Of a stretch of DNA of 64,000 bases, positions 24,666 through 61,833 are shown in pieces. The DNA is taken from positions 248,001 through 312,000 of the forward strand of contig NW_027590388.1 of assembly GCF_964213995.1 (NCBI RefSeq), in the 5' to 3' direction. The translations under genes were made by a program, and so were the position numbers. Numbering within the stretch: position 1 is the stretch's first letter; each line of letters starts with the position of its first letter. Under the pieces are notes generated by a model that saw only the letters and a program-made list of their open reading frames with translations, had not been told where the DNA came from and made no database searches. The stretch is from Mustelus asterias (taxonomy: Eukaryota).

Positions 24666-25117
24666 TCCTCTGGACAACATCTGTGAGGAAAACACTTTCT
24701 TTCTGCCCCTGGGAAATACAGAGACAGAGAAATTCTCTGGAACTGGAATTAGAGTCAAATATACTGAGGGAGAAATGTTTGTGATTTTGTGGAACCTGTT
24801 TTTATTGTCTGAGCTTTTTAAAGTGTAATTTATCCTGTCTATTCAAATACTGTTTCTTAATGCATGATTCAGTGATGTTAATTTTAGATTAATTTTTAAA
24901 GTAAAATTGTTTTAAAATGAAACATTGTCTTTGTTTATTCGATTGGGATTTGTGAGAATTTGTTTATTATAAGGTGACCATGAGGATCGTAACAACATTG
25001 ATATGTCTGGTGTTGTTATATGGTGTGGAGATGCCGGCGTTGGACTGGGGGAAACACAGTAAGAAGTTTAACAACACCAGGTTAAAGTCCAACAGGTTTA
25101 TTTGGTAGCAAAAGCCA

Positions 25118-25154
25118 CACAAGCTTTCGGAGCTCTAAGCCCCTTCTTCAGGTG
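25118..25154 (-). ncRNA. Minimal hammerhead ribozyme motif (PLE-associated)
   Basis: Reverse complement of 25981-26017. Confidence 0.7.
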
Positions 25155-25980
25155 AGTGGGAATTCTGTTCACAAACAGAGCACATAAAGACACAGACTCA
25201 ATTTACATGAATAATGGTTGGAATGCGAATACTTACAACTAATCAAGTCTTTAAGAAACAAAACAATGTGAGTGGAGAGAGCATCAAGACAGGCTAAAGA
25301 GATGTGTATTGTCTCCAGACAAGACAGCCAGTGAAACTCTGCAGGTCCACGCAACTGTGGGAGTTACAAATAGTGTGACATGAACCCAATATCCCGGTTG
25401 AGGCCATCGTCGTGTGTGCAGAACTTGGCTATCAGTTTCTGCTCAGCGACTCTGCGCTGTCGTGTGTCGCGAAGGCCGCCTTGGAGAACGCTTACCCGAA
25501 TATCAGAGGCCGAATGCCCGTGACCGCTGAAGTGCTCCCCAACAGGAAGAGAACAGTCTCGACAATCACCAGGCAAGACTGTTCTCTTCCTGTTGGGGAA
25601 CACTTCAGCGGTCACGGGCATTCGGCCTCTGATATTCGGGTAAGCGTTCTCCAAGGCGGCCTTCGCGACACACGACAGCGCAGAGTCGCTGAGCAGAAAC
25701 TGATAGCCAAGTTCCGCACACACGAGGACAGCCTCAACCGGGATATTGGGTTCATGTCACACGATTTGTAACTCCCACAGTTGCGTGGACCTGCAGAGTT
25801 TCACTGGCTGTCTTGTCTGGAGACAATACACATCTTTTTAGCCTGTCTTGATGCTCTCTCCACTCACATTGTTTTGTTTCTTAAAGACTTGATTAGTTGT
25901 AAGTATTCGCATTCCAACCATTATTCATGTAAATTGAGTCTGTGTCTTTATATGCTCTGTTTGTGAACAGAATTCCCACT

Positions 25981-26017
25981 CACCTGAAGAAGGGGCTTAG
26001 AGCTCCGAAAGCTTGTG
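25981..26017 (+). ncRNA. Minimal hammerhead ribozyme motif (PLE-associated)
   Basis: cac-CUGAAGA-a-ggggc/uuaga/gcucc-GAA-AGCU-U-gug. Confidence 0.75.
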
Positions 26018-26092
26018 TGGCTTTTGCTACCAAATAAACCTGTTGGACTTTAACCTGGTGTTGTTAAACTTCTTACGTTGTTATATGGTGCA

Positions 26093-26296
26093 CATGATGT
26101 AGAGATGCCGGTGTTGGACTGGGGTGGGCACAGTAAGAAGTCTCACAACACCTGGTTAAAGTCCAATGGGTTTATTTGGAATCACGAGCTTTCAGAGCGC
26201 TGCTCCTTCTCACCTGATGAAGGAGCAGCGCTCTGAAAGCTTGTGATTCCAAATAAACCTGTTGGACTTTAACCTGGTGTTGTGAGACTTCTTACT
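26093..26296. mobile_element. 204-bp non-coding hairpin derivative of the Penelope-like element
   Basis: Same catgatgt..gatgccgg terminus as the element at 48200; ~77-bp inverted arms; degenerate TSD at(a/g)tggtgca. Confidence 0.8.
26211..26245 (+). ncRNA. Minimal hammerhead ribozyme motif
   Basis: cac-CUGAUGA-a-ggagc/agc/gcucu-GAA-AGCU-U-gug. Confidence 0.7.
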
Positions 26297-26899
26297 ATGT
26301 GGTGCATAATGGGTATATTATTTATGGATTTGTATTACAGTTGATGTTGTTTAATTCCAGAATAGTATTGTAACTACTCTGTATATTTTCCAGTCAAAGA
26401 GTCATCAGAGCACAAGATAAATCAATTCAGCAGCTTGAGTCCGTGCCAAGTCTCTGTCGGGGAATCCACTCAGTGCCATTTTTCCTCGATATCCCTGTTC
26501 CCCAGTACGTTTCATTCCTTCAAGTGCCCGACCAATTTTATTTTGAAATCACTGGTCGTCTCCACTTCCACCACTCTCATCGTCAGCGAGTTCCAGAACA
26601 TGATTGCTTGCTCCCTAAGTCAAGTTCTTCCGCACCCACCTGTATCTCTAATCATGTAATAGAGTTCTGAATATTGCATACATTTTTAGTTCACTAAATA
26701 TGCAAATTTTTTATATGCTTAGACACGAGCCTGTGTGAAGATTTCAGGAATATGTGTCCTGTACATGAAACAGTCAGCACGGATCTGTCGATTAGGATGA
26801 ATCAGCACCCTCAGGACAATGTCTCTTTCAGGTCCAGCAAAGTGAGAATGGAGGGAGAGTGTTTGGGATGGAGATTTACAAATTTTCAAGAATGAGACG

Positions 26900-27488: not shown

Positions 27489-28578
<1,090 letters not shown>

Positions 28579-28640
28579 GTTCCAAATCTGATGATATCAA
28601 AGTTACGATAAATTGAGCCACTCCGTCAGCTTCCCAACGG

Positions 28641-29869: not shown

Positions 29870-32009
29870 AACATAAGAACATAAGAAATAGGAGCAGGAG
29901 TAGGCCATCTCGCCCCTCGAGCCTGCCCCGCCATTCAATAAGATCATGGCTGATCTGACGTGGATCAGTTCCACTTACCCGCCTGATCCCCATAACCCTT
30001 AATTCCCTTACCGATCAGGAATCCATCCATCCGCGCTTTAAACATATTCAGCGAGGTAGCCTCCACCACCTCAGTGGGCAGAGAATTCCAGAGATTCACC
30101 ACCCTCTGGGAGAAGAAGTTCCTCCTCAACTCTGTCTTAAACCGACCCCCCTTTATTTTGAGGCTGTGTCCTCTAGTTTTAACTTCCTTACTAAGTGGAA
30201 AGAATCTCTCCGCCTCCACCCTATCCAGCCCCCGCATTATCTTATAAGTCTCCATAAGATCCCCCCTCATCCTTCTAAACTCCAACGAGTACAAACCCAA
30301 TCTCCTCAGCCTCTCCTCATAATCCAAACCCCTCATCTCCGGTATCAACCTGGTGAACCTTCTCTGCACTCCCTCCAATGCCAATATATCCTTCCTCATA
30401 TAAGGGGACCAATACTGCACACAGTATTCCAGCTGCGGCCTCACCAATGCCCTGTACAGGTGCATCAAGACATCCCTGCTTTTATATTCTATCGTAAGAA
30501 GTTTAACAACACCAGGTTAAAGTCCAACAGGTTTATTTGGTAGCAAAAGCCACACAAGCTTTCGAGGCTCTGAGCCCCTTCTTCAGGTGAGTGGGAATTC
30601 TGTTCACAAACAGAACTTATAAGACACAGACTCAATTTACATGAATAATGGTTGGAATTGCGTCTCATTTTGCGTTTTCCAATCAACCGGCACTACCCCA
30701 GAATGCAACGAGTTTTGATAAATAATCACTAACGCATCCACTATTACCTCTGACATTTCTTTCAATACCTTGGGATGCATTCCATCCGGACCCGGGGACT
30801 TGTCTACCCAGCACTGCCTCTCTGGTAACATTATATTCTATCCCCCTCGCAATATAGGCCAACATCCCATTTGCCTTCTTGATCACCTGTTGTACCTGCA
30901 GACTGGGCTTTTGCGTCTCATGCACAAGCACCCCCAGGTCCCTTTGCACGGTAGCATGTTTTAATTTGTATCCATTGAGATAGTAATCCCATTTGTTATT
31001 ATTTCCTCCAAAGTGTATAACCTCGCATTTATCAACGTTATACTCCATTTGCCATATCCTCGCCCACTCACTCAGCCTGTCCAAATCTCTCTGCAGATCT
31101 TCTCCGTCCTCCACACGATTCACTTTTCCACTTATCTTTGTGTCGTCTGCAAACTTTGTTACCCTACACTCCGTCCCCTCCTCCAGATCATCTATATAAA
31201 TGGTAAATAGTTGCGGCCCGAGTACCGATCCCTGCGGCACGCCACTAGTTACCTTCCTCCAACCGGAAAAACACCCATTTATTCCGACTCTTTGCTTCCT
31301 GTCGGATAGCCAGTCCCCAATCCACTTTAACACACTATCCCCAACTCCGTGTGCCCTAATCGTCTTCAGCAGCCTTTTATGGGGCACCCTATCAAACGCC
31401 TTTTGGAAATCCAAAAACACCGCATCCACCGGTTCTCCTCCATCAACCGCCCTAGTCACATCTTCATAAAAATCCAACATGTTCGTCAAGCACGACTTTC
31501 CCCTCATGAATCCATGCTGCGTCTGATTGATCGAACCATTTCTATCCAGATGCCCTGCTATCTCCTCTTTAATAATGGATTCCAGCATTTTCCCTACTAC
31601 AGACGTTAAGCTGACCGGCCTATAGTTACCCGCCTTTTGTCTCCTTCCTTTTTTAAACAGCGGCGTAACATTAGCCGTTTTCCAATCAACCGGCACTACC
31701 CCAGAATGCAACGAGTTTTGATAAATAATCACTAACGCATCCACTATTACCTCTGACATTTCTTTCAATACCTTGGGATGCATTCCATCCGGACCCGGGG
31801 ACTTGTCTACCCAGCACTGCCTCTCTGGTAACATTAATTGTATTAAGTATTTCTCCTGCTGCCAACCCTCTATCGTTAATATTTGGCAAACTATTTGTGT
31901 CCTCCACCGTGAAGACCGACACAAAAAATTTATTTAAAGACTCAGCCATATCCTCATTTCCCACTATTAACTCCCCCCTCTCGTCCTCCAAGGGTCCAAC
32001 ATTCACTCT
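29870..32009 (-). mobile_element. Young CR1 LINE ORF2 with RT domain, interrupted at 30494-30830
   Basis: NYRPVSLTS, FLDFQKAFD, GVPQGSVLGP, FADDTK motifs; (ttcttatg)n tail. Confidence 0.93.
30494..30657 (-). mobile_element. Penelope-like 3' fragment with hammerhead motif (30553-30589)
   Basis: Near-identical to 25059-25222; TSD ttatattctatc at 30482 and 30831 flanks a composite insert. Confidence 0.82.
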
Positions 32010-48165: not shown

Positions 48166-48295
48166 GACCTGAGTAACATCACCTGACTCTGTCCTTAGAC
48201 ATGATGTGTAGTTGCCGGCGTTGGACTGGGGTGAACACAGTAAGAAGTCTCACAACACCAGGTTAAAGTCCAACAGGTTTATTTGGTAGCAAATA

Positions 48296-48332
48296 CCTTT
48301 AGCTTTCGGAGCGCTGCTCCTTCGTCAGATGG
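48296..48332 (-). ncRNA. Minimal hammerhead ribozyme motif
   Basis: ccau-CUGACGA-a-ggagc/agc/gcucc-GAA-AGCU-A-aagg (one helix I mismatch). Confidence 0.62.
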
Positions 48333-48640
48333 AGTGGAAATGTGCTCTCAAACAGGGCACAGAGACACAAAAAACAAGTTACAGAATACTGATTAGAATG
48401 CGAATCCCTACAACCAGCCAGATCTTAAAGATACAGACAATGTGGGTGGAGGGAGCATTAAGCACAGGTTAAAGAGATGTGTATTGTCTCCAGACAGGAC
48501 AGCTAGTGAGATTCTGCAAGTCCAGGAGGCAAGCTGTGGGGGTTACTGATAATGTGACATAAATCCAACGTCCCGGTTTAGGCCGTCCTCATGTGTGCGG
48601 AACTTGGCTATCAGTTTCTGCTCAGCGATTCTGCGCTGTC

Positions 48641-49935
48641 ATGGATTCATGAGGGGAAAGTCGTGCTTGACGAACATGTTGGATTTTTATGAAGATGTGA
48701 CTAGGGCGGTTGATGGAGGAGAACCGGTGGATGCGGTGTTTTTGGATTTCCAAAAGGCGTTTGATAAGGTGCCCCATAAAAGGCTGCTGAAGAAGATTAG
48801 GGCACACGGAGTTGGGGGTAATGTGTTAAAGTGGATTGGGGACTGGCTATCCGACAGGAAGCAAAGAGTCGGAATAAATGGGTGTTTTTCCGGTTGGAGG
48901 AAGGTAACTAGTGGCGTGCCGCAGGGATCGGTACTCGGGCCGCAACTGTTTACCATTTATATAGATGATCTGGAGGAGGGGACGGAGTGTAGGGTAACGA
49001 AGTTTGCAGACGACACAAAGATAAGTGGAAAAGTGAATCGTGTGGAGGACGGAGAAGATCTGCAGAGAGATTTGGACAGGCTGAGTGAGTGGGCGAGGAT
49101 ATGGCAAATGGAGTATAACGTTGAGAAATGCGAGGTTATACACTTTGGAGGAAATAATAACAAATGGGATTACTATCTCAATGGAAACAAATTAAAACAT
49201 GCTACCGTGCAAAGGGACCTGGGGGTCCTTGTGCATGAGACGCAAAAGCCCAGTCTGCAGGTACAACAGGTGATCAAGAAGGCAAATGGGATGTTGGCCT
49301 ATATTGCGAAGGGGATAGAATATAAAAGCAGGGATGTCTTGATGCACCTGTACAGGGCATTGGTGAGGCCGCAGCTGGAATACTGTGTGCAGTATTGGTC
49401 CCCTTATATGAGGAAGGATATATTGGCATTGGAGGGAGTGCAGAGAAGGTTCACCAGGTTGATACCGGAGATGAGGGGTTTGGATTATGAGGAGAGGCTG
49501 AGGAGATTGGGTTTGTACTCGTTGGAGTTTAGAAGGATGAGGGGGGATCTTATGGAGACTTATAAGATAATGCGGGGGCTGGATAGGGTGGAGGCGGAGA
49601 GATTCTTTCCACTTAGTAAGGAAGTTAAAACTAGAGGACACAGCCTCAAAATAAAGGGGGGTCGGTTTAAGACAGAGTTGAGGAGGAACTTCTTCTCCCA
49701 GAGGGTGGTGAATCTCTGGAATTCTCTGTCCACTGAGGTGGTGGAGGCTACCTCGCTGAATATGTTTAAAGCGCGGATGGATGGATTCCTGATCGGTAAG
49801 GGAATTAAGGGTTATGGGGATCAGGCGGGTAAGTGGTACTGATCCACGTCAGATCAGCCATGATCTTATTGAATGGCGGGGCAGGCTCGAGGGGCTAGAT
49901 GGCCTACTCCTGCTCCTATTTCTTATGTTCTTATG
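48641..49935 (+). mobile_element. Young CR1 (RT domain to 3' end, frame open to 49842) nested in the PLE
   Basis: HGFMRGKSCLTN, FADDTK; (ttcttatg)n tail; short tgtc duplication. Confidence 0.93.
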
Positions 49936-50824
49936 TCGTGTGTCGTGAAGGCCGCCTTGGAGAACGCTTACCTGAAGATCCAAGGCTGAATGCCCACGAC
50001 TGCTGAAGTGCTCCCCCACAGGAAGAGAACAGTCTTGCCTGGTGATTGTCGAGCGGTGTTCATTCATCCGTTGTCGTAGCATCTGCATGGTTTCCCCAAT
50101 GTACCATGCTTCGGGACATCCTTTCCTGCAGCGTATCAGGTAGACAACGTTGGCCGAGTTGCAAGAGTAGGTACCGTGTACCTAGTAGGCGGTGTTCTCA
50201 CGTGAGATGATGGCATCCGCGTCGATGATCCGGCACGTCTTGCAGAGGTTGCTGTGGCAGGGTTGTGTGGTGTCGTGGTCACTGTTCTCCTGAAGGCTGG
50301 GTAGTTTGCTGCGGACAATGGTCTGTTTGAGGTTGCGCAGTTGTTTGAAGACAAGAAGTGGGTGTGTGGGGATGGCCTTGGCGAGATGTTCGTCTTCATC
50401 AATGACACCGCTCGACAATCACCAGGCAAGACTGTTCTCTTCCTGTGGGGGAGCATTTCAGCAGTCACGGGCATTCAGCCTCTGATCTTCAGGTAAGCGT
50501 TCTCCAAGACGGCCTTCACGACACACCACAACGCAGAGTCGCTGAGCAGAAACTGATAGCCAAGTTCCGCACACATGAGGATGGCCTAAACCGGGATGTT
50601 GGATTTACGTCACATTATCAGTAACCCCCACAGCTTGCCTCCTGGACTTGCAGGCCGTTCTGTCTGGAGACAATACACATCTCTTTAACCTGTGCTTAAT
50701 GCTCCCTCCACCCACATTGTCTGTATCTTTAAGATCTGGCTGGCTGTCGGGATTCGCATTCTAATCAGTATTCTGTAACTTGATTTGTGTGTTTCTGTGC
50801 CCTGTTTGAGAGCACATTTCCACT

Positions 50825-50861
50825 CCATCTGACGAAGGAGAAGCGCTCCGAAAGCTAATGG
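50825..50861 (+). ncRNA. Minimal hammerhead ribozyme motif
   Basis: ccau-CUGACGA-a-ggag/aagcg/cucc-GAA-AGCU-A-augg. Confidence 0.72.
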
Positions 50862-51517
50862 TATTTGCTACCAAATAAACCTATTGGACTTTAACCTGGT
50901 GTTGTTAAAACTCTTACTCTGTCCTTAGAAACATAGAAATCCTACAGTGCAGAAAGAGGCCATTCGGCTCATCGAGTCTGCACCGACCACAATCCCACCC
51001 AGGCCCTATCACCATATCCCTACATATTTTACCCGCTAATCCCTCTAACCTACGCTTGATTCTGTTCGTCTGCAGCTGGAACTCTCGTCCATTCCTTCAA
51101 TAACTCCAGACTTAACTATCCGAATGCATTCCCGGCCTCCTACATTCAATCTCCCTGAAGTCTTGAAGTCATCCAAATCTCTGCTGGCCATGTGCTTACT
51201 CACATCAAGTCTTGTTCATCATCACCCCCGAGCTCACTGACCTGCAAAGGCATTTAGTGTGAAAAACACTTCTTTGAAATGCCCTGGGAAAGTCTATGAC
51301 ATGGAAGACACATAAATACAGATTGTTATTATTGACATGTATCATTGTTCCTTCATCATCACTGGGTGAATAACCTGTAACTCTTACCTAATGCATTGTG
51401 GGAGCACCTTCACCACATGGACTGCAACGGTTCAAGAAGGTCAAACATCATCTTGCCCACAGGTACCCGAGGATGGGGAATGTTTGCTGCTGGTCTTGTT
51501 AGTGAAAGGACACAGTC

Positions 51518-57372: not shown

Positions 57373-59173
57373 TTTTAATTTCAGATTTGTGTTCCCTGAT
57401 CTTGATATCTGAATTTTAATTGATTTCAGCCACCCCCCAACTTGCCATTTAACAAATTCACCTTGGATCGAAGAATATTTTAACCAATTAAGGCAACAGC
57501 AGGAATCTACGGTGGGTAAATTTTAAAAATAAGTTTATTCGACAAGAAATGTTTACTTCAAACATTGGCTTTTACAGCTTGATGTGGGTGATCAGTCTGT
57601 CGAAGGTTAACCCTCTCTGGCTCCTTCTTTGACAGGAATTCTTGTGGATTTCAACCTCAGAAGTCTGGTTCCTTCTTTGACAATAATTTACCTGGAACTC
57701 GACCCTGTGAATATTCAGTACTTGGCTGGCAGGGAAGATGTTGGGAATCTCTACTTTTATCCCCAAAGTGACCATTACCTGACATCAGAGTTGGGCTGAT
57801 TGTGACGTGACACTTGGTCAATTTGGTTACCAGATTAATTTAACCGGATCCCCAATTACTGACACCACCTTCTCTCATTATCTTAGACAGGAAAACAATT
57901 GCACAGTTTCATACTAACCCTTTATCTGATTCTATACAATCAGGTATTCAGACAATTTCAAATTCTGAGACAAATCAGAGCTTGAAGGTCTCTCTTACCA
58001 GTACATTTATCATCATTGCACATTCTTCACATACACAGCAATTCAGATGATATGTTTTTACAGCAAATAAAACTCAGCCTTTTACTATAAGCCGACTTGT
58101 GACACTAATAGATAAACAAAAAAATGACATTCTTTATCGATTTATTAACTGTAACTCAATTAAATCTCACTACTTCTCCAGTTATTTGTTACTGACTGCG
58201 AGCTAATTAATACAGTAATCTTTAGTTAATAAACTTGGTTCCTACAAGATAGACTGGTTCAAAAAGACAGTTTGTCGAAAGACAACAGCTTTCTTCCTTA
58301 CTAATCCTGACCAGACTGAACAATTAACCTTATTCTTCAGCTGGACTTTGGAAGAATATGATATCCTGTAGCTTATCAAAATTATAAAATAATTTCTTTC
58401 TTTAAACAACTTCTGCCGGCTCTGCAGTTTCTGGAAACATTTCAGGTTATTCAGTGTTAATATTTTAAAATAAAGATCTACCCTTTATATAATTGTCTAT
58501 TACACTGAGTCACTGATGATAGCTTATTCAAGGTTCATTACTGAATAACCATATGTTACATATAAAATCAATTTGTAGCTAATAAAGCCAGTGACAGAAG
58601 GTGAACAGACTGTTAGAAGCCACATGTTCGATTTTAAAATGGTTTCCTTGACCTTGTTACTTATAGCAATGAATATGGTATGAAAGTGATTGAATTTTAA
58701 AACTAAATTTGATGACTCAGGCCTGCAATTTCCTCCATTACAACAGTCACTACAATTCACAGAACTTCATTCACTGTATAATGTTTCAGGACAATGGCAA
58801 AGATAGATAGAGAAACAAGGTGGTGAAAGGTTATCAGGGGGAGGTGGGAATGTGGAGTTGAGGTTTCAATTAGATCAGCCATGATTATGTTGAATGGCAG
58901 AACAGGCTCCTGATTCACATGTTCATCTGACACCCTGTGGTTGTGAGAGGTGCTATAGAAATGCAATTTTTTTTTGTTTCCCCACAATGTTGGATAATTA
59001 CACTCAGTCCCTGCATCAAAATCATTGTTAAAGGTTGAGTCTAAATTTGACACATTTTGAATGCTGGGGTGGTTTTCTCCAAAGAGAAGACGAAGAAGTG
59101 ATCTGATGGAAGTCTTTAAGATTATGAAGGGGTTCAATAATCCAACGGGGATTTAATGAGAAACCTCTTTACC

Positions 59174-61395
59174 CAGCGAGTGGTGAGACTGTGGAACTCA
59201 CTATCACAGCGAGTGGTGAGACTGTGGAACTCACTATCACAGCGAGTAGTGAGACTGTGGAACTCACTATCACAGCGAGTGGTGAGACTGTGGAACTCAC
59301 TATCACAGCGAGTGGTGAGACTGTGGAACTCACTATCACAGCGAGTGGTGAGACTGTAGAACTCATGACCACAGCGAGTGGTGAGAATGTGGAACTCACC
59401 ATCACAGCGAGTGGTGAGAATGTGGAACTCACCATCACAGCGAGTGGTGAGAATGTGGAACTCACCATCACAGCGAGTGGTGAGAATGTGGAACTCACTG
59501 TCACAGCGAGTGATGAGAATGTGGAACTCACCATCACAGCGAGTGGTGAGACTGTGGAACTCACTATCACAGCGAGTGGTGAGAATGTGGAACTCACTAT
59601 CACAGCGAGTGGTGAGAATGTGGAACTCACTATCACAGCGAGTGGTGAGACTGTAGAACTCATGACCACAGCGAGTGGTGAGAATGTGGAACTCACCATC
59701 ACAGCGAGTGGTGAGAATGTGGAACTCACTATCACAGCGAGTGGTGAGACTGTAGAACTCATGACCACAGCGAGTGGTGAGACTGTGGAACTCACTATCA
59801 CAGTGAGTGGTGAGACTGTGGAACTCACTATCACAGCGAGTGGTGAGACTGTGGAACTCACTATCACAGCGAGTGGTGAGACTGTGGAACTCACTATCAC
59901 AGCGAGTAGTGAGACTGTGGAACTCACTATCACAGTGAGTGGTGAGACTGTGGAACTCACTATCACAGCGAGTGGTGAGACTGTGGAACTCACTATCACA
60001 GCGAGTGGTGAGACTGTGGAACTCACTATCACAGCGAGTGGTGAGACTGTAGAACTCATGACCACAGCGAGTGGTGAGAATGTGGAACTCACCATCACAG
60101 CGAGTGGTGGGAATGTGGAACTCACCATCACAGCGAGTGGTGAGAATGTGGAACTCACCATCACAGCGAGTGGTGAGAATGTGGAACTCACTATCACAGC
60201 GAGTGGTGAGACTGTAGAACTCATGACCACAGCGAGTGGTGAGAATGTGGAACTCACCATCACAGCGAGTGGTGAGAATGTGGAACTCACTATCACAGCG
60301 AGTGGTGAGACTGTAGAACTCATGACCACAGCGAGTGGTGAGAATGTGGAACTCACTGTCACAGCGAGTGATGAGAATGTGGAACTCACCATCACAGCGA
60401 GTGGTGAGACTGTGGAACTCACTATCACAGCGAGTGGTGAGAATGTGGAACTCACTATCACAGTGAGTGGTGAGACTGTGGAACTCACTATCACAGCGAG
60501 TGGTGAGACTGTGGAACTCATGACCACAGCGAGTGGTGAGAATGTGGAACTCACCATCACAGCGAGTGGTGAGAATGTGGAACTCACTATCACAGCGAGT
60601 GATGAGACTGTAGAACTCATGACCACAGCGAGTGGTGAGACTGTGGAACTCACTATCACAGTGAGTGGTGAGACTGTGGAACTCACTATCACAGCGAGTG
60701 GTGAGACTGTGGAACTCACTATCACAGCGAGTAGTGAGACTGTGGAACTCACTATCACAGCGAGTAGTGAGACTGTGGAACTCACTATCACAGCGAGTGG
60801 TGAGACTGTGGAACTCACTATCACAGCGAGTGGTGAGAATGTGGAACTCACTATCACAGCGAGTGGTGAGACTGTGGAACTCATGACCACAGCGAGTGGT
60901 GAGACTGTAGAACTCATGACCACAGCGAGTGGTGAGAATGTGGAACTCACTATCACAGCGAGTGGTGAGACTGTGGAACTCACTATCACAGCGAGTGGTG
61001 AGACTGTGGAACTCATGACCACAGCGAGTGGTGAGACTGTAGAACTCATGACCACAGCGAGTGGTGAGAATGTGGAACTCACCATCACAGCGAGTGGTGA
61101 GAATGTGGAACTCACCATCACAGCGAGTGGTGAGAATGTGGAACTCACCATCACAGCGAGTGGTGAGACTGTGGAACTCACCATCACAGCGAGTGGTGAG
61201 AATGTGGAACTCACCATCACAGCGAGTGGTGAGACTGTGGAACTCACCATCACAGCGAGTGGTGAGAATGTGGAACTCACCATCACAGCGAGTGGTGAGA
61301 ATGTGGAACTCACCATCACAGCGAGTGGTGAGACTGTGGAACTCACTATCACAGCGAGTGGTGAGAATGTGGAACTCACTGTCACAGCGAGTGGT
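59174..61395. repeat. 33-bp minisatellite, 67 units plus 11 bp, derived from CR1 ORF2
   Basis: Unit cagcgagtggtgaga(c/a)tgtggaactcac(t/c)atca; a single unit is present in the paralogue at 16718-16761. Confidence 0.97.
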
Positions 61396-61833
61396 TGAGG
61401 TGAACAGCGTGAATACATTGAAGGGGAAGCGAGATACATACATGAGGGAGAAAGGAATAGAAGGATACGCTGATGGGGGGAGATGAAGAGGGGTGGGTGG
61501 AAACTTATGTGGAGTATAAATAGTGACACAGACTGATTGAGCCGACTGGCCTGGCCCTGTGCTGTCGACTCAATGGAACAGAGACAAATGTATTTTAGAT
61601 CTACCTGGAGTGCTATTAAAAGCACTATTTACTATCCAAGATAAAATAAATGTCCTTCATCAGCTTTTGTGGGTCATTTCAGTAGAAATGTGCTCTCCCA
61701 GGCTCAAAGTGCATCAACCCACTGGAATCAACATCGAGAGACCAGCCAGTCCAACAGAAAGAAACTTCACCAAAATGATTCAGTCCTGGACATGATGAAC
61801 AGCAGCAATAACAGCAGAATCCAACCCCTGTCA

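What the first reader, a model, noticed from the sequence alone, without database searches (positions are those of the whole stretch)
26093..26296. 204-bp non-coding hairpin mini-element folded exactly at the ribozyme
Seen: a ~38-nt PLE terminal tail plus ~77-bp inverted arms whose centre (tcacctgat) is the 5' edge of the hammerhead, so only one arm has a complete core; it has its own degenerate TSD. Inference: a non-autonomous, retrozyme- or MITE-like unit reduced to ribozyme plus 3' terminus and mobilised by the PLE enzyme. It would define the minimal cis sequence and could yield hairpin small RNAs.
Basis: partly seen in the sequence, partly recalled or inferred. Interest (0 to 1): 0.72.

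Follow-up and report, generated by a model that had tools for sequence, protein, structure and literature searches.

The report
Penelope hairpin stub marking RNA start
This small hairpin is one dead insertion of a very abundant Penelope-like jumping gene, not a separate mini-family; such stubs keep ending at one spot just ahead of the built-in ribozyme, which likely marks where the element's RNA begins, and some appear to be built from two different RNA molecules.

Summary
The hairpin is real: 201 bp (26095-26295), a 38-nt tail, 77-bp arms (73/77 paired), a 14-bp TSD, and a minimal hammerhead complete only in the tail-less arm. It is not a self-propagating family. All 30 best genome matches share its flanks (paralogs of one insertion beside a C2H2 zinc-finger gene). 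In 99 independent copies of its subfamily, 52 are compact hairpins with 52 different junctions (137-241 bp). The ends are not random, though: 51 of 74 tailed arms stop within about 5 nt of one A, 7 nt upstream of CUGAUGA. That A fits an Inr with TATA near -31, and stops there are mostly followed by an extra C (69/100), as expected from a copied cap. A TATA-less subfamily with the same ribozyme lacks the pile-up (5/49). Several TSD-bounded hairpins carry different subfamily markers in the two arms. Best reading: both DNA ends prime reverse transcription near the start codon, run off the RNA 5' end, and are joined head to head. The architecture is known for Penelope-like elements. Earlier notes of this scan reported similar stubs and a similar start-site reading on other DNA.

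The parts
26082..26095 (.). Left target-site duplication (14 bp; its last T is also the first base of the tail)
   Evidence: ancestral form TATATGGTGCATAT on the left in 20 of 30 paralogs
26095..26132 (-). 38-nt PLE tail (outer reverse-transcription start; in related subfamilies it ends at the ORF start codon)
   Evidence: same terminus in most sampled copies; L320 and L366 show tail followed by ATG and shared further sequence; loose contig ends at this terminus in other runs
26133..26209 (-). Tailed arm: pLTR piece reaching reference position 115; its hammerhead lacks CUGAU and the 5' strand of stem I
26210..26295 (+). Tail-less arm: pLTR piece from 1-2 nt short of the predicted transcription start to the inner reverse-transcription start; 26210-26218 is the unpaired centre
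   Evidence: tail-less arms begin near reference position 38-39
26210..26246 (+). Minimal type I hammerhead, predicted cut after 26242; decayed at C11.1 and C17; sequestered by the other arm in any transcript of the whole element
   Evidence: sequence read against PMC4209133; folds; no Rfam hammerhead hit
26296..26309 (.). Right target-site duplication
25026..26076 (.). Neighbouring younger 1.05-kb PLE palindrome (another subfamily, with the C-terminal end of the ORF in both arms), inserted into the mini-element's left TSD region with its own 14-bp TSD (25012-25025 / 26077-26090)
   Evidence: (507-nt arms, 98%); present in only 5 of 30 paralogs
27523..28596 (-). Host C2H2 zinc-finger ORF; the hairpin lies about 1.2 kb beyond its stop codon and was multiplied with this segment
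   Evidence: ORF; PF00096, E 3.8e-70; shared flanks

Best explanation
This is a single, short, dead insertion of an endonuclease-bearing Penelope-like retrotransposon, likely made when both ends of the cut target DNA primed reverse transcription near the 5' end of the element's RNA and the two short cDNAs were joined head to head. Shown: architecture, TSD, family with RT and GIY-YIG-like ORF, junction heterogeneity, pile-up of ends, extra C, discordant arms in some copies, spread of this copy by segmental duplication. Inferred steps: (1) the RNA starts, capped, at the A of TCC-A-CT, 7 nt upstream of the hammerhead core; (2) one end primes at the outer start (tail end, at the start codon) and the other 38 nt further in, so only one arm has the tail; (3) with only about 126 nt of RNA ahead, the enzyme runs off the 5' end, often copying the cap; (4) the cDNA ends are trimmed and joined through short homologies (here the tailed arm lost about 11 nt and the other 1-2 nt); (5) the two arms usually come from the same source sequence but sometimes from RNAs of different loci. 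The product has no promoter and its ribozyme would be trapped in the hairpin, so it is predicted not to move again by itself.
For: (n = 99): 71 have an inverted arm; 87 of 123 arms that reach position 122 end at 122-131 (7.1% per nt against 0.3-1.9% in the seven other bins); the commonest single end is 126, the Inr-like A; a TATA-like motif starts at -29 to -35 in 31 of 40 read-through arms of the GGTGAGT type, and in 0 of 55 arms of subfamily B; stops in that window are 51 of 74 (A) against 5 of 49 (B), Fisher p = 7e-11, although B has the same kind of hammerhead; 3,557 genome sites leave the consensus right after 126; the first 100 are C 69, A 20, T 11; 40 of 41 such sites inspected are true stops, 32 of 40 with C; 18 of 26 after removing by eye those the other arm could explain (p = 9e-6 against an assumed 0.27). 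Control one base further: C 21, T 12, A 67 of 100. Subfamily C shows the same C bias, 61 of 100; contigs of two other coded organisms leave the element at the same base, with a loose consensus starting with C (15 and 219 contigs). Against simple fold-back: the tail-less arm is the longer one in 20 of 60 close junctions and in this copy; TSD-bounded hairpins with different subfamily markers in the two arms are L071, L243, L250, L060, L162, L258, L330 and L336. In vitro, an anole PLE cuts and extends both strands and starts at two internal sites that bound the tail (PMC11167929). Long copies encode RT (PF00078, E 3.3e-10) and a GIY-YIG-like end (E 0.014, below cut-off).
Against: The transcription start is predicted from sequence only; no RNA 5' ends were available. 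Subfamily C has the TATA box too, yet only 1,237 sites stop at +1 against 36,201 that go on, so TATA alone does not set the size of the pile-up. The position-128 control is confounded by a probable subfamily variant (many A), and the C:T contrast is only p = 0.01. Most hairpins have concordant arms: 64 AAT/AAT pairs among 164, and 7 of 7 family-C hairpins agree in a variable loop (by eye). Two templates are therefore a minority. In this copy neither arm reaches position 126, so the cap base is not seen here. The sample is the first 100 of 2,905 sites, all on contig C1, and the search pattern required the tailed arm to reach position 91.
Confidence: 0.72

Rival explanations
1. A non-autonomous hairpin mini-element (retrozyme-, SINE- or MITE-like) that is transcribed and re-inserted as a unit by the PLE enzyme.
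For: Compact hairpins are very common: 52 of 99 sampled copies and 1,409 genome sites with exact 13-nt arms and a gap of 30 or less. Lengths cluster near 200 bp. 118 sites share the exact centre. Non-autonomous PLE derivatives exist (retrozymes, 10.64898/2026.07.22.740005; Chlamys, PMC8557442).
Against: 52 of 52 junctions differ. 30 of 30 best hits, and 18 of the 30 same-centre loci examined, share this locus's flanks (one of the 18 judged by eye from its left flank). The other 12 come from at least five subfamily marker types, and in one the tail sits on the other arm. There is no promoter, no tandem array and no free ribozyme.
Confidence: 0.05
2. Self-primed fold-back: one cDNA stalls, snaps back on itself and is copied, so the second arm is a copy of the first (self-priming is proposed in PMC3846280).
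For: Most hairpins have concordant arms. Some junctions hold small local palindromes or templated inserts. The tailed arm is the longer one in 27 of 60 close junctions.
Against: The tail-less arm is longer in 20 of 60 and in this copy, so it holds sequence the tailed cDNA no longer has (trimming after copying is possible). Arms with multi-site or indel subfamily differences occur inside one TSD. Both arm types end at the same 5' site with the same extra base (8 of 11 and 6 of 7). Unrelated inserts of 100-600 nt lie between the arms within one TSD.
Confidence: 0.13
3. Twin-ended insertion as above, but the pile-up reflects the reverse transcriptase pausing at the hammerhead fold, or a fixed short processivity, rather than an RNA 5' end.
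For: The site is the 5' edge of stem I. The stop rate already rises inside the ribozyme (0.9-1.5% per nt at 102-121). Subfamily C has TATA but few stops.
Against: Subfamily B has an equivalent hammerhead and no pile-up there. Stops peak after the structure has been passed, on an Inr-like A, with a cap-like extra base.
Confidence: 0.1

Closest known systems
Insertions of endonuclease-positive Penelope-like elements with an inverted 5'-truncated pLTR, one-sided 30-40-bp tail and TSD (PMC3846280, PMC8557442, PMC8969392, PMC2377424; passages read)
   Same: [quoted passage not shown]
   Different: Reduced to about 200 bp with no ORF. In this subfamily about half of the sampled copies are such stubs, and their ends pile up at a predicted transcription start with a cap-like base. 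I did not find this described (searches).
PAc (Poseidon of Anolis) in vitro mechanism (PMC11167929; main text, parts 1-2 of 4, read)
   Same: Two internal reverse-transcription starts that bound the tail, both DNA strands cut and extended, and a hammerhead near the start codon that is not needed for insertion.
   Different: PAc starts lie about 111-118 nt inside the ORF, whereas here the outer start is at the start codon. The parts read do not explain inverted copies or report run-off at the RNA 5' end. The linker of a long copy here has a Cys cluster as described for Neptune/Nematis; no tree was built.
Minimal hammerheads of metazoan PLE pLTRs (PMC4209133; parts 1-2 of 4 read)
   Same: Short stem I, an extra base before stem II, palindromic AGCU in place of stem III; that paper also notes opposite-strand pairs 100-700 bp apart.
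   Different: Here the fold point removes half of one core, and the other core is decayed and base-paired to its complement.
L1 twin priming and cap-derived untemplated G (PMC4859970; passages read)
   Same: Two primed cDNAs joined with small indels; an extra G at the 5' end of copies that reach the RNA start.
   Different: L1 twin priming copies two different parts of one RNA and gives an inversion without duplication. Here nearly the same stretch is copied twice, giving a palindrome, sometimes from different source loci.
Non-LTR retrozymes (10.64898/2026.07.22.740005, part 1 of 5 and passages read; PMC7229834, search listing only)
   Same: Short, non-coding, derived from a PLE pLTR, carries a type I hammerhead.
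   Different: Retrozymes are head-to-tail tandem repeats with a complete ribozyme in consecutive units. This is a single inverted unit with one decayed core and no fixed unit length.

Membership tests
EN+ Penelope-like element insertion | [quoted passage not shown] | tested here: met
   L273 (same tail and arm core, subfamily B): RVT_1 E 3.3e-10; GIY-YIG E 0.014, below the Pfam cut-off, motif visible by eye. The neighbouring 1-kb copy carries the same ORF end.
EN+ Penelope-like element insertion | Inverted truncated pLTR with a 30-40-nt tail on one side | tested here: met
   38-nt tail, 77-bp arms; 71 of 99 copies have an inverted arm
EN+ Penelope-like element insertion | Target-site duplication | tested here: met
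   14 bp; ancestral form on the left in 20 and on the right in 18 of 30 paralogs
EN+ Penelope-like element insertion | Neptune clade placement | tested here: inconclusive
   A Cys cluster between RT and EN in L273 fits the description in PMC8557442; no phylogeny was run
Minimal type I hammerhead (PLE) | CUGANGA and GAAA-UH boxes, stems I and II, palindromic 15.2-16.2 | tested here: met
   26210-26246 on +; stems I and II form in the isolated fold; the conserved G10.1-C11.1 pair is G-U here; Rfam models do not detect it
Minimal type I hammerhead (PLE) | Self-cleavage (as a dimer or protein-assisted) | not testable with these tools
   needs a cleavage assay; in a transcript of the whole element the motif is fully paired with the other arm
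Non-LTR retrozyme | Tandem head-to-tail units, each with a complete hammerhead | tested here: not met
   single inverted unit, one partial core
Non-LTR retrozyme | Circular RNA accumulation | not testable with these tools
   no raw-read RNA run was offered
Non-autonomous family (SINE- or MITE-like) | Many independent insertions of one fixed structure | tested here: not met
   52 distinct junctions in 52 hairpins; near-identical copies share flanks
MITE | Terminal inverted repeats of a DNA transposon with a short fixed TSD | tested here: not met
   the ends are asymmetric (tail), the TSDs are about 9-17 bp and variable, and the sequence is a retroelement pLTR

The most novel reading that the evidence does not exclude
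The thousands of short PLE hairpins in this genome are a fossil run-off assay. Each records two reverse transcriptions primed from the two ends of one cut, starting at the two tail-bounding sites and ending at the capped RNA 5' end, sometimes on RNAs from two different loci. This would explain the inverted pLTR plus one-sided tail of PLEs as a two-template, double-ended priming reaction, and would map the PLE transcription start in vivo from DNA alone.
Probability: 0.6. Interest if true: 0.55.

Novelty: new member of a known kind. Interest (0 to 1): 0.33.

Why it matters
The element itself is ordinary debris. Its family statistics bear on an open question named in PMC8557442: how PLEs form their inverted repeats and tails. 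The data favour priming from both DNA ends over self-priming, give a testable transcription start 7 nt upstream of the ribozyme, and show mixed-template insertions. Separately, this one hairpin was multiplied about a hundredfold with a zinc-finger gene segment; if the transcripts read through it, it would be a ready source of double-stranded RNA (untested).

Tried and rejected
Rfam: no hammerhead hit; the mir-1597, MIR845 and mir-247 matches are below their gathering scores and reflect the hairpin shape. Pfam on the short ORF end in the window: 0 families. Expression: no RNA holder listed with raw reads; the four runs laid were contigs, which cannot show starts or levels. TSD search for the non-inverted copies was mostly inconclusive: about 9 of 28 gave a plausible TSD within 20 nt of the stop. 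A regular expression for the family-C loop marker matched nothing, so that comparison rests on 7 hairpins read by eye. 'TATA present means large pile-up' was rejected by subfamily C. 'Folded at the cleavage site' was rejected for this copy: the centre is about 30 nt upstream of the cut, and 1 of 99 tailed arms ends at the cut. Counting the 97-100% identical genome hits as a young family was rejected because they share flanks. Literature searches found no paper on such stubs in sharks, or on cap-marked run-off or two-template priming in PLEs; the library lacks most subscription journals and Repbase, and no supplements were read (those of the bioRxiv retrozyme preprint are closed and might list such units).

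Full report
Observation. The element spans 26095-26295 (201 bp): a 38-nt tail (26095-26132), an arm (26133-26209), a 9-nt centre and the mirror arm (26219-26295), with 73 of 77 positions complementary. It folds at -152.6 kcal/mol, z = -20.7. The TSD is decayed here but is the same 14-mer on the left in 20 and on the right in 18 of 30 paralogous loci. The + strand at 26210-26246 matches, by eye, the minimal hammerhead of PLEs described in PMC4209133 (parts 1-2 of 4 read); Rfam does not detect it. The tailed arm lacks CUGAU. The other core has U at C11.1 and C17 and is fully paired in any transcript of the whole element. The centre is the ribozyme's 5' edge, not its cut site.

What family. The termini belong to a very abundant PLE (2,905, 4,056 and over 36,000 exact-pattern sites for three subfamilies called A, B and C here). 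A long copy encodes RT (PF00078, E 3.3e-10) and a GIY-YIG-like C-terminus (E 0.014, below cut-off). An inverted truncated pLTR, a one-sided 30-40-nt tail and a TSD are the described PLE insertion pattern (PMC3846280, PMC8557442, PMC8969392, PMC2377424; passages read). Earlier scan notes call the host a shark; I did not test that.

Is it a mini-family? No. The 30 best genome hits (97-100%, the window included) all share both flanks: one old insertion multiplied with a segment that here carries a C2H2 zinc-finger ORF. Five of the 30 later received the adjacent 1.05-kb PLE palindrome. The exact centre occurs 118 times. Of 30 examined, 18 are paralogs (17 by script, one by its left flank) and 12 are independent; these carry at least five different subfamily markers, and in one the tail is on the other arm. 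For an unbiased view I took the first 100 of 2,905 tail-anchored sites of subfamily A (all on contig C1), dropped one tandem duplicate (n = 99) and four doubtful second-arm calls. 71 have an inverted arm, and 52 are compact hairpins of 137-241 bp with 52 different junctions. Both arms reach the full core in 17, neither in 10.

The ends are not random. Counting from the tail, 87 of 123 arms that reach position 122 end at 122-131 (7.1% per nt, against 0.3-1.9% in the other bins), with the mode at 126. Position 126 is the A of TCC-A-CT, which fits the Inr consensus BBCA+1BW (PMC5287114, abstract read), 7 nt upstream of CUGAUGA. A TATA-like motif starts at -29 to -35 in 31 of 40 read-through arms of this type and in 0 of 55 arms of subfamily B. 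B has an equivalent hammerhead but no pile-up: 5 of 49 against 51 of 74 tailed arms, p = 7e-11 (64 of 70 B places kept for having a real tail, one more dropped as a tandem duplicate). Sites that leave the consensus right after 126 number 3,557; the first 100 continue with C 69, A 20, T 11. 40 of 41 inspected are true stops, 32 with C; 18 of 26 remain C after removing, by eye, those the opposite arm could supply (p = 9e-6 against an assumed 0.27). An untemplated G on the sense strand is the accepted sign of a copied cap in L1 and SVA (PMC4859970, passages read). Contigs from two other coded organisms leave the element at the same base with a loose consensus starting with C (run X6, the same sample as X3, lists its loose end one base further). 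Against: the one-base-further control has C 21, T 12, A 67 and is confounded by a probable variant (C:T contrast p = 0.01). Subfamily C has TATA and the C bias (61 of 100) but only 1,237 stops against 36,201 read-throughs. No RNA 5' ends were available.

How the mirror arm arises. Tail-less arms begin near position 38-39, matching the two internal starts that bound the tail in the anole PLE, which also cuts and extends both DNA strands in vitro (PMC11167929, parts 1-2 of 4 read). Among 60 close junctions the tail-less arm is longer in 20, the tailed arm in 27, equal in 13; in this copy the centre belongs to the tail-less arm. Among 164 arm pairs from all loci (paralogs L001-L030 excluded) most agree at subfamily markers (64 AAT/AAT), as do 7 of 7 family-C hairpins at a variable loop. 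But some TSD-bounded hairpins disagree at two-base, linked or indel markers: L071, L243, L250, L060, L162, L258, L330, L336. In the set chosen for AAT in the tailed arm, 3 of about 64 informative second arms carry the two-base TAG form, far more than decay would give. A copy of the first cDNA cannot do this; two RNAs can. The ancestral form of this very insertion may itself be mixed: in 24 of 30 paralogs the arms differ at a site where a recurrent variant occurs in 11 of 147 arms, which is weak evidence.

Mechanism. Shown: structure, TSD, family, junction diversity, pile-up, C bias, discordant arms, segmental spread. Inferred: capped RNA starting at position 126; priming from both target ends at the two starts beside the start codon; run-off after about 126 and 88 nt; trimming and joining; no promoter in the product, so no further movement. 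Confidence 0.72. Self-primed fold-back (proposed in PMC3846280) 0.13; a structural pause instead of an RNA end 0.10; a true mini-family 0.05.

Side result. Prompted by an earlier scan note, I checked the ribozyme cut site. In subfamily B, 5 of 100 arm ends fall exactly on it against 4 in the next ten positions, and 784 genome sites diverge there against 215 one base further. The script called 18 of 30 such sites stops; by eye about 15, since two read through, one is ambiguous and two are duplicates. A local palindrome at that spot could favour joins, and subfamily A shows no such peak (1 of 99).

Verdict. An ordinary kind of PLE insertion, useful as one datum in a family-wide record of where copying starts and stops. 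I wrote the run-off and twin-priming reading in my notes before opening the scan's earlier findings, which report similar stubs and readings in this and other genomes; they are unchecked notes and not counted as support. Searches found no paper describing the cap-marked pile-up or mixed-template arms in PLEs; subscription journals, Repbase and supplements were not covered.

Noticed in passing
window 25026-26076: A younger 1.05-kb PLE palindrome (507-nt arms, 98%) inserted with a 14-bp TSD that overlaps the mini-element's left TSD; present in 5 of 30 paralogs, so it dates a sub-clade of the segmental duplication.
   Followed up: partly
L296-L325, L170, L184, L268 (subfamily B): Arm ends are enriched exactly at the predicted hammerhead cut (5 of 100 ends; 784 against 215 genome sites), a possible trace of cleavage in vivo; a local palindrome is a confounder.
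   Followed up: partly
L052, L083, L087, L092, L110: Two short arms ending near the predicted start enclose 100-630 nt of other sequence within one TSD; in L052, L083 and L087 it looks by eye like PLE RT-coding sequence, suggesting template jumps after run-off.
   Followed up: no
L053, L143, L230, L252, L253, L358, L367: A recurrent junction (GAGTC or GACTC core) would follow if two cap-extended cDNA ends anneal through a 5-nt near-palindrome that includes the cap-derived base.
   Followed up: no
G000 contigs C71 and higher; window 27523-28596: 88 of the 100 listed same-centre sites lie on contigs C71 and higher; those examined are paralogs of this locus, which sits 1.2 kb beyond a C2H2 zinc-finger ORF. 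The window holds many more long ORFs and inverted repeats of similar segments.
   Followed up: partly
left flanks of L048, L049, L052, L053, L056, L057, L065, L070: Many flanks end in the same four bases before the tail, which read on the sense strand as the continuation of a start codon; the true start of copying may lie a few bases further into the ORF or use microhomology with the target.
   Followed up: no
window 26210-26218, - strand; also subfamily C: The antisense strand at the ribozyme's 5' edge reads as a near-perfect splice donor (CAG/GTGAGT in full copies; a GTAAGT variant exists), and the arm end plus tail resembles a branch point and acceptor on the sense strand. Untested, may be chance.
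   Followed up: no
window 59042-61600: A 33-bp tandem array of about 70 units with open frames of 750-820 codons on both strands.
   Followed up: no
window 29871-31516 and 48640-49936: Inverted duplicate blocks of 620-690 bp at 99-100% identity, 17-19 kb apart; further PLE pieces at 30491-30658, 48199-48643 and 50411-50924.
   Followed up: no
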